The notes under the pieces were generated by a model. That model was not told the DNA's origin and searched no databases. It saw nothing but the letters and a program-made list of their open reading frames with translations. A stretch of 64,000 bases of DNA from Naegleria gruberi (taxonomy: Eukaryota). Shown here piece by piece: positions 38,130-41,823 of this stretch. Made by a program: the position numbers and the translations under genes. The stretch is from assembly GCA_000004985.1 (NCBI GenBank), contig GG738857.1; one strand, 5' to 3'. Within the stretch, counting starts at the first letter, position 1; every line of letters starts with the position of its first letter.

Positions 38130-41100
38130 TTAATTACCAATCATTTCAAGAATGCTTTGAGCAGTTACAACTGTGCAATGTGGATTCTCCTTGATATATT
38201 TCCTAGTGAGAGTTGTTTCTTGATCTTCAATTTCATCATGATCAATCTCTGCCAATTGATTTTCACTATTTACAATAATCATATCCAAAGACTTGATTTC
38301 ATTAGTAATAATTCCTCCGTTCAAAGCTATAGATCCTTTCAACTTTCTATTATTCTTATTTTCCATTCCAAATAGATAGATTTTCATGCCTTCTAGAGGG
38401 TCATCCTTAGCAGAATCTTCTGCTGCTTGTTGCTTTTGAGCTGGAGAAGCTGATACGGTTCTTGTTGGCGTGTTTGCAGCTCTTGTTGGAGTTGATGTAG
38501 GAGCTTTACTATTAGATTTTGTTGGTGTTGAACTTGTTGAGCTTTTGTGTTGTTGAGTTTGTGGTTGCTTATTCCAATTAGAATAAGACCCACTTCTATC
38601 AAAGTAATATATATATGTTTTGACTTTGGCTTTCAATAGGCATTTCTAATAAAATATTATTGTAAATTAATTAAAATGTAAAGAGCAAACAAACCTTAAT
38701 AATTCTTTCAGTTGAATACCAATCAAAACCTTGAATTCCAAATCCAATTCTAGGCATGTGCACTGTAGCATCCATTGTGACAGCAGAGTAACAGACTTTT
38801 GCTAGGGCAATCTCTAGAGCACTATTAATAATTGGACCGTGACCCTTTGATTTCTCATAGTGTTGAGCAATTACATTTACAATATAGGTTGATCCCTTCT
38901 TACTCTTTACAGGAGTGAGTTGAGCCTCACCGACTGAGATAAGATCCTGTTCACAAGCATTTTCATAAATTAGCTTGATTTTCTTCCCGTACTTGCTGGT
39001 AATATGTTTAGAAATACCAGCATTTGGAAATTGTCCAAAATCTGAAATAACACTGTTGAAATTGTTATCTTGTTTGTGAATAAAAATACTTACTTGACAA
39101 TAAATCTAGTACCTGAGTGTTCATATTTTTCAGGTTGAGTAACATCTCCTTTCACATATTGAATAGTATTACTGTCGGAAGTGATTGGAGAGAATGGTTC
39201 ATCATCTTCTTCCTTGTTGAATTGTTTTTCCATTAGATAAAGGTCCAATTCCCAATCATCAGGTATTTCAATCAAATGTGGATCAAATTCATCATACTCA
39301 GATTCCTCATCTTCATCATCACTAGTTTTAATCTTTCTTCTCTTGGTTGTTGCATTTCTTTTGGAACCTCTTGTTCTGGTTGAAATAGGTGAAATGTATC
39401 CATCATCGTCTTCATCATCTGAAGGAGATAATATGAGAGATTCGTCCTTTTCAACTTCTTTCTTCTTTGGTTTCTTCTTTGGAGCTGCCTTCTTTTTCTT
39501 AGATTTAGTATGGTGATCTGTTTTTTGAGAACATAGATCAATGCCAGCATCTCCCAACAAGTTTTGTAATGCCTCCACATCCTTTGAAGATGAAGTTGTC
39601 TTTGGTCGATAGTCAATTCCGTCGTACATGTAAATGGATCCAGATTCAACATCTTGTAAACTCTCCGCAGCACTTTCTAAAGATAAACTCAATCTCTTAG
39701 GTCCCTTCTTGGCTAATAATTCATCAATGGTGATACCAAGAAGCTTTTCATCTGATTCTTCAGCACTGACGTCAGAGGTAGAGTCCATAATTTTGTGTAA
39801 TCCAAATGAAATCATTTCCATAATAGTATCGGAAGAGAGTTTTTCATCAGAGCTTGAATCAAATGCATTCGAAACGGCAGATGATGTATCAATAGTATTG
39901 ATGGATAGAGCAATCTTTTTCATTGATCTTTTCAAGATTACTTCTTCTACTGAGCTTTCAGTGACCAATCTGTAAACTGTTACTGGCTTATCTTGACCTA
40001 TTCTGTGACATCTGGCCTGAGCTTGTAAATCCATTTGAGGATTCATATCCATATCCATAAAAATAACTGTATCCGCACTGGTCAAGTTCAAACCAACACC
40101 TCCTGCTCTAGTGGAGAGCAAAAAGACAAACACATCCTTATCTGTGAAACTCTTAATTGCTTCAAATCTTTCCTCTCCTCTGACAGAACCGTCGAGTCGT
40201 TCATAATTCCACTTTCTGAAAGAAAAGTAGTCCTGTAAAATGTCCAACATTTGAGTCATTTGAGAGAAGATCAAAACCTTGTGCCCTTCTTGTTTGAGCT
40301 TTTTCAATAGTTTGTCTAAAATAATCATTTTACCACTGTTATTCACAATATGTTCACCTTCAACAAATGGTTCTTCTTCTGCTCCTTCAAACATATAGGG
40401 GTGATCACAACATTTACGTAAACTCATTAGGACATTGCTGAGACCTCTAGAATTCTTCTTACCAATAGCATTTCTATCAGCCATGAGGAAACCCTTGTAG
40501 AATTTCTTTTGTAAAGTTGTCAACCTAGTATAGATGATGTGTTCTTCCTTTGGAGGAAGATCATTCTTGAGAACTTGATTCTTTGTTCTTCTAAGAAGGA
40601 ATGGCTTGAGAACAATTTGGAAATTATTCCTCACAGAATCAGCATCCACATCCTCAACATTTTCATCAATATCTTCTTCAATATCTACACTCTCAGAGAT
40701 GGATTTCTTCAAAGTTGATTTGGAGAGGAAACATTGCTGAGGGAACCAGCTGTCAAATGTTTCGAATAAATGATCAAAGTAAGTTGGAGCACAGAAATAT
40801 AGGAGAGCCCACAGTTCTTTTGTATTGTTCATTAATGGAGTACCACTCATGAGAATGACTCTTTCATACTTGTAGATTTGTTGGAGGGCCTTGTAAAGGA
40901 TTGAATTTGGATTTTTCAGTCTGTGAGCTTCATCCACACAAAGACATTTATATTCGAAACCAGAAAGAAAACTTTCATCATTTGTTACTGTTTCATATGA
41001 TGTAACAATAACATCATATGGAAATTCTCCACTCTCCGCAAACTCCTCATTCAAAGTATCTTGCAATTCTGCACGTTCTTCTTGATTTCCATGATATCTC

Positions 41101-41823
41101 AACACACGAACAGAATTTCCACAAAATTTGTTAAATTCCAAACACCAATTTTCAATCAATGACAATGGCGAAACAATTAGAAATGGTTTCCTTGAACTTT
41201 CCTTGTCAGTACTTTCCATCCAATAACAGAAAAAACTAATCACCTCCAAAGTCTATATTATTACACGATCGTATTCACTCCAAAATTTTGATTACTTACT
41301 TTACCAAGACCCTATTTAAATAGTTGATCAATTAGTTTAAATTTCCAATTTAGAATAAGAAGAAACATACCATATCGTCACCTAATATTCCACCATGCGT
41401 CTTGTTATCCAACAATAAACTCTTCAACCAAGAAACAGCTTGCCACTGATGATTCTTCAATTTACACGAATTCAACAAGTATTTTGATGAAGGATTCGGC
41501 AACTGATCAACATCTCTCATCTCATTCAAACACTCACAATCAATTTGCAATGATTTAATTCTATTCAAAAATACATTAAAATCCAGCGTTTTGTTTTTTG
41601 GTTTTTGCAATTTTAATTTACTCAAATCCTTCTTCTTCTTTTTATTCCGATGATCATGATTGTGGTCATCATCATCATGATCGGAATCTGAAAGAGGCGG
41701 AGGTGAGTCATCTTCATCTTCTATATCTGAAAATTCTTCTTCCGATTGATGATCAACTCGTGGTTGTCTTGTTTCTTCTTCATCTTCATCAACAATGATG
41801 GAATCTTTTTTACGTTTGGACAT
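38130..41823 (-). CDS. ALC1/CHD1L-like chromatin remodeler: SNF2-family ATPase, then a TARG1-like macro domain, then a BRCT-like C-terminus. Five exons: 41823..41371, 41311..41300, 41252..39094, 39052..38695, 38645..38130
   Basis: Exon 1 carries the Q motif HQWQAVSWL...GGILGDDM|GTATGT. The 12-nt micro-exon GGTCTTGGTAAA (GLGK) lies between atttaaatag| and |GTAAGT. Exon 3 reads TLEVISFFCYWM...PFLIVSPLSLIENW...DEAHRLKN and the helicase-C motifs (LLSTRAGGVGLNLTSADTVIFMDMDMNPQMDLQAQARCHRIGQ). A 41-nt intron GTAAGT...TTTCAACAG leads to the macro exon (YIVNVIAQHYEKSKGHGPI...VHMPRIGFGIQGFDW, compare TARG1 SMPRIGCGLDRLQW). A 49-nt intron GTTTGT...TTATTAG leads to the BRCT-like exon (KIYLFGMENKNNRKLKGSIALNGGII...TVVTAQSILEMI). 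All splice phases are consistent. Confidence 0.8.
41300..41311 (-). other. 12-nt micro-exon encoding G-L-G-K (the Walker-A/motif I lysine) of the SNF2 ATPase
   Basis: GGTCTTGGTAAA is flanked by acceptor ...atttaaatAG and donor GTAAGTaatc. Upstream exon 1 ends GGILGDDM. The downstream exon starts TLEVISFF. Together these reconstitute GGILGDDMGLGKTLEVISF. Confidence 0.65.

What the first reader, a model, noticed from the sequence alone, without database searches (positions are those of the whole stretch)
38130..41823. ALC1/CHD1L-like remodeler with a TARG1-type macro domain and an added BRCT-like tail
The reconstructed five-exon gene joins an SNF2 ATPase to a macro domain, the defining ALC1/CHD1L architecture, which reads poly-ADP-ribose. 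The macro domain here resembles the TARG1/C6orf130 hydrolase type (VHMPRIGFGIQGFDW versus TARG1 SMPRIGCGLDRLQW). The gene ends with a BRCT-like module (IYLFGMENKNNRKLKGSIALNGGII...TVVTAQSILEMI). A remodeler that combines an ADP-ribose reader or eraser with a phospho-peptide or PAR-binding BRCT would be a distinct DNA-damage chromatin-remodeling design.
Basis: partly seen in the sequence, partly recalled or inferred. Interest (0 to 1): 0.7.

Follow-up and report, generated by a model that had tools for sequence, protein, structure and literature searches.

The report
Naegleria ALC1/CHD1L remodeler with ancestral BRCT
This is the Naegleria gruberi copy of the DNA-damage chromatin remodeler ALC1/CHD1L, and its extra BRCT tail is an old family feature that mammals and other amniotes lost, so the gene is largely ordinary apart from a truncated public annotation.

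Summary
The five-exon gene on the minus strand (41823..38130) is real. It encodes 1165 aa and its four introns (59, 47, 41, 49 nt) are all GT..AG. The protein aligns end to end with human CHD1L/ALC1 (E 1e-152), so it is the Naegleria gruberi ALC1 orthologue.

The macro domain is ALC1's own type (E 9e-25 to the human ALC1 macro; TARG1 only E about 0.3). Both TARG1 catalytic residues (K84, D125) are Gln, while the ALC1 PAR-binding Asp (D723) is kept. It is therefore a reader, not an eraser.

The tail is a divergent BRCT. It falls below Pfam thresholds and lacks the usual Trp. It matches the C-terminal BRCTs of other CHD1L orthologues at hhalign probability 96.9%.

SNF2-macro-BRCT also occurs in Acrasis, Amoebozoa and animals from sponges to ray-finned fish. 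It is absent from every amniote sequence retrieved. The BRCT is therefore ancestral, not added. It is closest to XRCC1 BRCT2 and the LIG3 BRCT.

The public N. gruberi model (XP_002679645.1, 1001 aa) reads into intron 4 and lacks the tail.

Verdict: an ordinary orthologue plus a re-annotation. I found no paper discussing a BRCT in ALC1.

The parts
38130..41823 (-). Whole CDS of the N. gruberi ALC1/CHD1L orthologue, from the ATG at 41823 to the stop at 38132-38130; five exons, 1165 aa
   Evidence: 100% identical over 86% of its length to XP_002679645.1; end-to-end match to human CHD1L, E 1e-152
41371..41823 (-). Exon 1: acidic/basic N-terminal extension and the start of the SNF2 N-lobe (aa 1-151)
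   Evidence: same N-terminus as the public model P0002
41312..41370 (-). Intron 1, 59 nt, GTATGT..TAG
   Evidence: the junction GDDM|GLGK is continuous in orthologues
41300..41311 (-). Exon 2: 12-nt micro-exon encoding GLGK (Walker A lysine)
   Evidence: needed to restore the GLGKT motif, and present in the public model
41253..41299 (-). Intron 2, 47 nt, GTAAGT..TAG
39094..41252 (-). Exon 3: rest of the ATPase (DEAH at 40934-40923; motif VI QAQARCHRIGQ at 40025-39993), the long charged linker, and the first strand of the macro domain including GDVT (39149-39138)
   Evidence: Pfam SNF2-rel_dom 125-442 and Helicase_C 463-574; coordinates
39053..39093 (-). Intron 3, 41 nt, GTAAGT..CAG, phase 2, inside the macro domain
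   Evidence: an intron at the same position in the metagenomic relative L001
38695..39052 (-). Exon 4: core of the macro domain (aa 875-994), including IAQH (38871-38860) and PRIGFGIQ (38754-38731)
   Evidence: Pfam Macro 886-993, E 1.5e-7; human CHD1L macro E 9e-25
38646..38694 (-). Intron 4, 49 nt, GTTTGT..TAG; the public gene model reads into it and stops (…ERIIKVCLLFTF*)
38601..39164 (-). ALC1-type macro domain, aa 852-1009, spanning exons 3-5; its last strand KTYIYYF lies in exon 5
38409..38600 (-). Ser/Thr/Pro/Gln-rich linker, aa 1010-1073; poorly conserved (20-25% identity among Naegleria species)
38133..38408 (-). Divergent C-terminal BRCT domain, aa 1074-1165. It includes a Naegleria-clade acidic insertion DEIEDQET (38237-38214) and has no Trp in helix 3
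   Evidence: hhalign 96.9% to other CHD1L BRCT tails; Pfam sub-threshold; AF2 pLDDT 82 with BRCT topology; Foldseek top hit XRCC1 BRCT2; 56-57% identity among Naegleria species

Best explanation
The locus encodes the Naegleria gruberi orthologue of the poly(ADP-ribose)-activated nucleosome remodeler ALC1/CHD1L, in the ancestral three-module form: SNF2 ATPase, ALC1-type macro domain, then a flexible linker and a single C-terminal BRCT.

Inferred mechanism, by homology with human ALC1: the non-catalytic macro domain holds the ATPase autoinhibited. Binding of oligo/poly-ADP-ribose made by PARPs at DNA breaks recruits the enzyme and releases the ATPase to slide nucleosomes.

The BRCT is tethered by a roughly 64-aa low-complexity linker and belongs to the XRCC1-BRCT2 / LIG3-BRCT sequence neighbourhood. 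It most likely acts as an extra docking module at repair sites. The candidates are a BRCT-BRCT interaction with another repair scaffold, or a second PAR or DNA contact. It is unlikely to be a canonical phosphopeptide reader. Which ligand it binds is not shown here.
For: Orthology. The protein aligns with human CHD1L at E 1e-152 over residues 117-1015 against 27-867, well ahead of ISWI at 8e-118. The next best database hits after Naegleria and Acrasis are named CHD1L from many animals.

Active ATPase. GLGKT, DEAH and QAQARCHRIGQ are intact.

Macro as a reader. It matches the human ALC1 macro at E 9e-25. The Asp equivalent to D723 is conserved in GDVT, and D723A is the PAR-binding mutant (PMC7895907). 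TARG1 K84 and D125 are both Gln.

The human mechanism (autoinhibition by the macro domain, activation by PAR) is taken from PMC5745148 and PMC8463071.

BRCT. The Naegleria tail profile against other CHD1L tails gives hhalign probability 96.9%, E 1.9e-10. Those other tails hit XRCC1 BRCT2 at E 1.8e-18 and the LIG3 BRCT at 2e-10, and exceed Pfam thresholds. AF2 with the family alignment gives b1-a1-b2-b3-a2-b4-a3 at pLDDT 82, with a Foldseek top hit of XRCC1 BRCT2.

The tail is under constraint: 56-57% identity among Naegleria species, against 20-25% in the linker.

One transcript. The last macro strand is encoded in exon 5, and the orthologues are continuous across that junction.
Against: There is no transcript evidence for N. 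gruberi itself, and the public model omits exon 5.

The tail misses the Pfam gathering scores (19.8 against 27.3 bits; 16 against 21.3). It lacks the near-invariant BRCT Trp.

AF2 with only the four Naegleria-clade sequences is not confident (pLDDT 46). The confident model therefore leans on true BRCT sequences in the alignment.

PAR binding, autoinhibition and any BRCT partner are inferred, not tested. I could not check whether Naegleria has an XRCC1/LIG3-type partner.
Confidence: 0.85

Rival explanations
1. One reading: a novel design in which a TARG1-type (potentially catalytic) macro domain and a newly acquired BRCT were added to an SNF2 motor in this lineage.
For: The local motif HMPRIGFGIQGFDW resembles TARG1's SMPRIGCGLDRLQW. 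The well-studied human ALC1 has no BRCT.
Against: At the whole-domain level, ALC1 macro scores E 9e-25 and TARG1 E 0.25-0.4. With TARG1 as the query, CHD1L is not found at E<=0.001. K84 and D125 are both Gln. The same C-terminal BRCT is present in Acrasis, Protostelium, the Acanthamoeba cluster, sponges, cnidarians, echinoderms, molluscs, annelids, hemichordates and ray-finned fish.
Confidence: 0.04
2. The tail is not a functional BRCT. It would be a decayed remnant or an unrelated small alpha/beta segment that only resembles a BRCT.
For: Sub-threshold Pfam scores. Loss of the conserved Trp, and a helix 3 that ends at the C-terminus. Low-confidence AF2 with the Naegleria-only alignment. The best PDB hit of the Naegleria profile is only E 0.006.
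Against: It is positionally orthologous to bona fide BRCTs and homologous to them at hhalign 96.9%. It is conserved far better than the adjacent linker across four Naegleria-clade sequences, with 31 invariant columns. The NGG motif and the hydrophobic strand pattern are retained.
Confidence: 0.08
3. Exon 5 is not part of this gene: the public 1001-aa model is right and the tail is a separate small gene or non-coding.
For: The public annotation XP_002679645.1 ends inside intron 4. No RNA data were checked.
Against: The public model ends in seven residues with no homology (VCLLFTF) and lacks the last macro strand (KTYIYYF), which is encoded at the start of exon 5 and conserved from Naegleria to human. 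N. lovaniensis, N. fowleri and Acrasis models and a metagenomic ORF are continuous through this point. The intron has canonical GT..AG ends and restores the reading frame.
Confidence: 0.03

Closest known systems
Human ALC1/CHD1L (PDB 7otq, 7enn, 7epu)
   Same: Same subfamily and the same order of SNF2 ATPase, charged linker and C-terminal ALC1-type macro domain. Aligned end to end (E 1e-152). The PAR-binding Asp (D723) is conserved, and the TARG1 catalytic residues are absent in both.
   Different: The Naegleria protein has about 115 extra N-terminal residues and about 155 extra C-terminal residues (low-complexity linker plus BRCT). The macro loop reads PRIGFG rather than PRIGHA.
Non-amniote CHD1L orthologues (e.g. 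Acanthaster, Strongylocentrotus, Hydra, Dysidea, ray-finned fish; Acrasis kona; Protostelium; Acanthamoeba cluster)
   Same: Identical three-module layout of SNF2, macro, linker and single C-terminal BRCT. The tails are homologous.
   Different: Their BRCTs pass Pfam thresholds and keep the helix-3 Trp and the C-terminal extension after it. The Naegleria clade has lost the Trp, ends right after helix 3, and carries a conserved acidic insertion DEIEDQET between strand 3 and helix 2.
XRCC1 second BRCT / DNA ligase III BRCT (PDB 3pc8, 1cdz, 3pc7, 6wh1)
   Same: These are the closest solved relatives of the CHD1L-family BRCT: E 1.8e-18 and 2e-10, and the Foldseek top hit for the Naegleria tail model. 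They share the LPDFF-x-G lead-in to strand 1. The residue at the position of the phosphate-binding Ser is aromatic in both.
   Different: They sit in different proteins. The BRCT-BRCT heterodimerisation known for XRCC1 and LIG3 has not been tested for any CHD1L BRCT. The Naegleria lead-in reads DDPLEG.
TARG1/OARD1 (C6orf130) ADP-ribosyl hydrolase
   Same: Same broad macro-domain clade and a shared PRIG-x-G..W motif.
   Different: Only marginal whole-domain similarity (E 0.25-0.4). The catalytic residues K84 and D125 are both replaced by Gln. TARG1 is a stand-alone enzyme.

Membership tests
ALC1/CHD1L subfamily of SNF2 remodelers | SNF2-type two-lobe ATPase with intact catalytic motifs | tested here: met
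   Pfam SNF2-rel_dom E 3e-70 and Helicase_C E 4e-26; GLGKT, DEAH and QAQARCHRIGQ present
ALC1/CHD1L subfamily of SNF2 remodelers | Closer to CHD1L than to any other SNF2 subfamily, over the full length | tested here: met
   CHD1L E 1e-152 covering 117-1015, against ISWI 8e-118 covering the ATPase only; named CHD1L proteins dominate the database hits
ALC1/CHD1L subfamily of SNF2 remodelers | C-terminal macro domain of the ALC1 type | tested here: met
   Human CHD1L macro E 9e-25; Pfam Macro E 1.5e-7, above the gathering score
ALC1/CHD1L subfamily of SNF2 remodelers | PAR-binding Asp (human D723) conserved | tested here: met
   GDVT aligned with human G722-D723-V-T; D723A is the PAR-binding mutant (PMC7895907)
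ALC1/CHD1L subfamily of SNF2 remodelers | PAR-dependent release of macro-mediated autoinhibition and nucleosome sliding | not testable with these tools
   Biochemical property; inferred from homology only (PMC5745148, PMC8463071)
TARG1/OARD1-type ADP-ribosyl hydrolase macro domains | Significant whole-domain similarity to TARG1 | tested here: not met
   TARG1 chains score E 0.25-0.42, 14 bits; TARG1 as query does not retrieve CHD1L at E<=0.001
TARG1/OARD1-type ADP-ribosyl hydrolase macro domains | Catalytic Lys84 | tested here: not met
   Aligns with Gln of IAQH (phmmer alignment); TARG1 sequence verified against PDB. The roles of the residues are from my own knowledge of the TARG1 literature.
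TARG1/OARD1-type ADP-ribosyl hydrolase macro domains | Catalytic Asp125 | tested here: not met
   PRIGCGLD aligns with PRIGFGIQ, so the position is Gln
BRCT domain | Passes the Pfam BRCT-family gathering score | tested here: not met
   BRCT_2 19.8 bits against 27.3, and BRCT 16 bits against 21.3, for the tail alone; N. fowleri BRCT 20.5 against 21.3
BRCT domain | Profile-level homology to bona fide BRCT domains | tested here: met
   hhalign 96.9%, E 1.9e-10, to CHD1L tails that themselves hit XRCC1 BRCT2 at 1.8e-18; top PDB hits of the Naegleria profile are TopBP1/Rad4 BRCTs, E 0.006-0.07
BRCT domain | b1-a1-b2-b3-a2-b4-a3 fold | tested here: inconclusive
   AF2 with the family alignment gives this topology at pLDDT 82, with BRCT top hits. 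With only Naegleria-clade sequences the pLDDT is 46.
BRCT domain | Conserved Gly-Gly after helix 1 and conserved Trp in helix 3 | tested here: inconclusive
   NGG is present; the Trp column holds S/D in the Naegleria clade
Phosphopeptide-binding BRCT (BRCA1-type pocket) | Ser/Thr-Gly at the b1-a1 turn plus Lys in helix 2 (BRCA1 S1655, G1656, K1702) | tested here: not met
   The columns are F/Y, G and R/K in the Naegleria clade, so the Ser/Thr is missing (BRCA1 sequence verified). The sequence alignment of such divergent domains is approximate. The roles of the residues are from my own knowledge.

The most novel reading that the evidence does not exclude
ALC1 was ancestrally a three-module enzyme. 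Its XRCC1-BRCT2/LIG3-like BRCT physically coupled PAR-activated nucleosome sliding to an XRCC1/ligase-type BRCT scaffold, or gave a second PAR or DNA contact. Amniotes lost this link, so the human-based model of ALC1 recruitment is incomplete for most eukaryotes. The Naegleria clade carries a remodelled version of the domain, with no Trp and a conserved acidic DEIEDQET insert, possibly with a changed partner.
Probability: 0.2. Interest if true: 0.5.

Novelty: new member of a known kind. Interest (0 to 1): 0.28.

Why it matters
The practical result is a corrected gene model for N. gruberi NAEGRDRAFT_65361. The public protein lacks the last macro strand and the whole BRCT.

There is also a point of perspective. 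All mechanistic work on ALC1 that I could find uses the BRCT-less human enzyme. The SNF2-macro-BRCT form is the widespread one and probably the ancestral one.

If the BRCT proves to be a working docking module, related as it is to the XRCC1/LIG3 BRCT pair, it would add a recruitment or coupling step to the ALC1 mechanism in most eukaryotes. It would also raise the question of what replaced that step in amniotes. This is a modest, testable lead, not a new kind of system.

Tried and rejected
1. The first database search, with macro + linker + tail, returned only one hit (P0001) and missed the Naegleria orthologues, probably because the low-complexity linker swamped the word index. The full-length query worked.

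I predicted the tail alone instead.

3. AF2 with only the four Naegleria-clade tails was meant as an independent fold test. It gave pLDDT 46 and was uninformative.

I have no transcript evidence.

5. The MAFFT alignment with TARG1 misplaced the K84 region. I used the phmmer pairwise alignment instead.

6. Four literature searches for a BRCT in CHD1L/ALC1, and look-ups in two ALC1 papers, found no description of it. This is absence in the searchable library only.

7. A search for Naegleria XRCC1 or ligase III literature found nothing relevant.

8. I considered and rejected three readings: a TARG1-type eraser, a lineage-specific BRCT gain, and exon 5 as a separate gene. The reasons are under the rival explanations.
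Full report
**Observation**

The window is AT-rich eukaryotic DNA (about 33% GC).

- The five exons are 41823-41371, 41311-41300, 41252-39094, 39052-38695 and 38645-38130.
- The four introns are 59, 47, 41 and 49 nt, all with GT..AG ends.
- The CDS is 3498 nt and encodes 1165 aa.
- The second exon is a 12-nt micro-exon that supplies GLGK of the Walker A motif.
- Retaining intron 1, 3 or 4 runs into a stop within a few codons.

**Organism and public annotation**

A full-length database search gave a 100%-identical hit over 86% of the length to "predicted protein [Naegleria gruberi]" (P0002 = XP_002679645.1 / NAEGRDRAFT_65361 / UniProt D2V921).

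That public model is 1001 aa and ends ...STERIIKVCLLFTF. It reads straight into intron 4 and stops there. It therefore lacks the last strand of the macro domain (KTYIYYF), the linker and the whole tail.

The orthologues read ...ERI(I/L)KKCLLKA(G/K)(I/V)KT(Y/F)(I/V)YYF... without interruption and continue into a homologous tail. These are N. lovaniensis (1165 aa), N. fowleri (1145 aa), Acrasis kona (934 aa) and two metagenomic ORFs. Human CHD1L reads [20 protein letters not shown] at the same place.

The metagenomic contig L001 has an intron at the same position as intron 3 and none at the position of intron 4. I could obtain no RNA evidence.

**What the protein is**

Pfam finds the following:

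| Domain | Residues | E-value |
|---|---|---|
| SNF2-rel_dom | 125-442 | 3e-70 |
| Helicase_C | 463-574 | 4e-26 |
| Macro | 886-993 | 1.5e-7 |

Against all PDB sequences the best match is human CHD1L/ALC1 at E 1e-152. The alignment runs from residue 117 to 1015 of the query and from 27 to 867 of the 897-residue human protein. The next subfamily, ISWI, scores 8e-118 and covers only the motor.

After the Naegleria and Acrasis proteins, the database hits are overwhelmingly proteins named CHD1L. The motifs GLGKT, DEAH and QAQARCHRIGQ are intact. This is the N. gruberi ALC1/CHD1L orthologue.

**The macro domain**

Taken alone, the macro domain scores as follows against solved structures:

| Match | E-value |
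|---|---|
| Human ALC1 macro | 9e-25 |
| Bacterial macro domains (BT1257) | 2e-15 |
| TARG1/C6orf130 | 0.25-0.42 |

With TARG1 as the query (its sequence verified against the PDB), CHD1L is not retrieved at E<=0.001. In the pairwise alignment TARG1 K84 aligns with the Gln of IAQH, and D125 aligns with the Gln of PRIGFGIQ. Human ALC1 has Gln and Lys at these positions.

The Asp that corresponds to human D723 is conserved in GDVT. Its mutation, D723A, is the standard PAR-binding mutant (PMC7895907).

The domain is therefore ALC1's own non-catalytic reader macro, not a TARG1-type eraser. Acrasis has the same G-x-G form (PRIGYG) and Protostelium a looser one (PRLGQG), so it is not peculiar to this gene.

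**The tail**

The last 92 residues give only sub-threshold Pfam hits: BRCT_2 at E 0.001 and 19.8 bits against a threshold of 27.3, and BRCT at E 0.014.

A profile of the four Naegleria-clade tails matches a profile of twenty other CHD1L tails at hhalign probability 96.9%, E 1.9e-10, over 76 columns. Those other tails are unambiguous BRCTs:

- They pass Pfam thresholds for BRCT, BRCT_2 or LIG3_BRCT.
- As a profile they hit XRCC1's second BRCT at E 1.8e-18, TopBP1/Rad4 BRCTs at about 1e-13 to 1e-16, and the LIG3 BRCT at 2e-10.

AlphaFold2 on the N. gruberi tail with this family alignment gives pLDDT 82 and the canonical b1-a1-b2-b3-a2-b4-a3 order. Foldseek against the PDB then returns XRCC1 BRCT2 first (probability 1.0, TM 0.56), followed almost entirely by BRCTs.

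This model is not independent of the homologues. With only the four Naegleria-clade sequences, AF2 is unconfident (pLDDT 46).

The Naegleria tails are divergent in three ways:

- The near-invariant helix-3 Trp is replaced (SIL, DIM or DLL in its place).
- The protein ends right after helix 3.
- A conserved acidic insert, D(D/E)EI(E/D)DQET, sits between strand 3 and helix 2.

The tail is nevertheless under constraint. Identity between N. gruberi and N. lovaniensis or N. fowleri is 74% in the macro domain, 56-57% in the BRCT and 20-25% in the linker.

In the columns of the BRCA1 phosphate pocket the Naegleria clade has F/Y, G and R/K where BRCA1 has S1655, G1656 and K1702. A canonical phosphopeptide pocket is therefore not intact. 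XRCC1 BRCT2 also has an aromatic residue at the first position.

**Is the BRCT an addition?**

It is not. Measuring what follows the conserved PRIG motif in the 121 retrieved proteins, every mammalian, squamate, turtle and crocodilian CHD1L ends about 40-70 residues later. The following carry about 140-220 further residues ending in a BRCT:

- ray-finned fishes, including Polypterus and Amia;
- a partial amphioxus model;
- hemichordates, echinoderms, molluscs, an annelid, cnidarians and a sponge;
- Acrasis and the Naegleria species.

Pfam places these BRCTs at the extreme C-terminus.

Outside animals and Heterolobosea, Protostelium nocturnum has a macro domain at 689-876 and a BRCT at 946-1011. 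The Acanthamoeba castellanii cluster has a macro domain at 873-1058, a BRCT at 1163-1241 and N-terminal RanBP zinc fingers. Both have the same order of domains. Rigifila ramosa has a Trp-containing tail that Pfam does not call.

The layout is thus present in Discoba, Amoebozoa and Metazoa. The parsimonious reading is an ancient origin with loss in amniotes. Amphibians and cartilaginous fishes were not sampled. I did not build a formal BRCT phylogeny, so independent gains are not strictly excluded.

**How it most likely works**

Shown here: orthology, an intact motor, a reader-type macro domain, and a constrained BRCT-family tail on a flexible linker.

Inferred from the human enzyme (PMC5745148, PMC8463071, PMC7116876): the macro domain docks on the ATPase and autoinhibits it. 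PAR made at DNA breaks binds the macro domain, recruits the enzyme and releases the motor to slide nucleosomes.

For the BRCT, the nearest solved relatives are the XRCC1-BRCT2/LIG3-BRCT pair, which work by BRCT-BRCT dimerisation (this is from my own knowledge of that system). A docking role at repair sites is therefore the best guess. A second PAR or DNA contact is the alternative. None of this was tested, and I could not determine whether Naegleria has a suitable partner.

**Comparison with the literature**

Searches for CHD1L or ALC1 together with BRCT found only reviews that list the two as separate PAR readers. Nothing described a BRCT in ALC1 orthologues. The feature is, however, visible in automated domain annotation of many public sequences.

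**Verdict**

The protein is an ALC1-type remodeler and the tail is a BRCT. The macro domain is not TARG1-type or catalytic, and the BRCT is ancestral, not a new design.
- This is a new, somewhat divergent member of a known kind, plus a correction of the public gene model.
- Interest is low to moderate.

Noticed in passing
window 38125-38132: The upstream-neighbour ORF on the + strand (34786-38127) is a 1113-aa low-complexity protein with a C-terminal tyrosine-phosphatase domain (Pfam Y_phosphatase E 3e-45). Its stop codon ends 2 nt before the stop codon of the ALC1 gene on the - strand. The two convergent genes must therefore have overlapping 3' UTRs or share a termination zone.
   Followed up: partly
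window 41824-41963: Only about 140 bp separate the ALC1 start codon (41823, - strand) from the start of a divergent 373-aa leucine-rich-repeat gene (41964-43085, + strand; LRR_6/LRR_8). This would be a very compact bidirectional promoter region.
   Followed up: no
window 41300-41311: A 12-nt micro-exon encodes GLGK, the Walker A lysine of the ATPase. It is flanked by introns of 59 and 47 nt. Skipping it would stay in frame but delete an essential catalytic motif.
   Followed up: partly
window 38646-38694: The public N. gruberi protein XP_002679645.1 (D2V921, 1001 aa) reads through this intron and terminates. It is truncated by 171 real residues (end of the macro domain, linker, BRCT).
   Followed up: yes
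window 62289-62699 (N runs near 61.3-61.5 kb and 62.7 kb): A near-perfect hexanucleotide array, (TTTGGG) x 68 (97% matches), lies next to assembly gaps and accounts for the extreme GC skew of the last 2 kb. I did not determine whether it is a telomere-like repeat or a plain microsatellite.
   Followed up: partly
window 38214-38237 (aa 1131-1138): A conserved acidic motif, D(D/E)EI(E/D)DQET, is inserted between strand 3 and helix 2 of the BRCT. It is invariant or nearly so in all four Naegleria-clade sequences and absent from other CHD1L tails. Its function is unknown.
   Followed up: no
P0019 / Acanthamoeba castellanii cluster (XP_004344817.1): The amoebozoan ALC1 homologue carries RanBP-type zinc fingers at its N-terminus in addition to the macro domain and BRCT. 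This could be a further reader module in this family.
   Followed up: no
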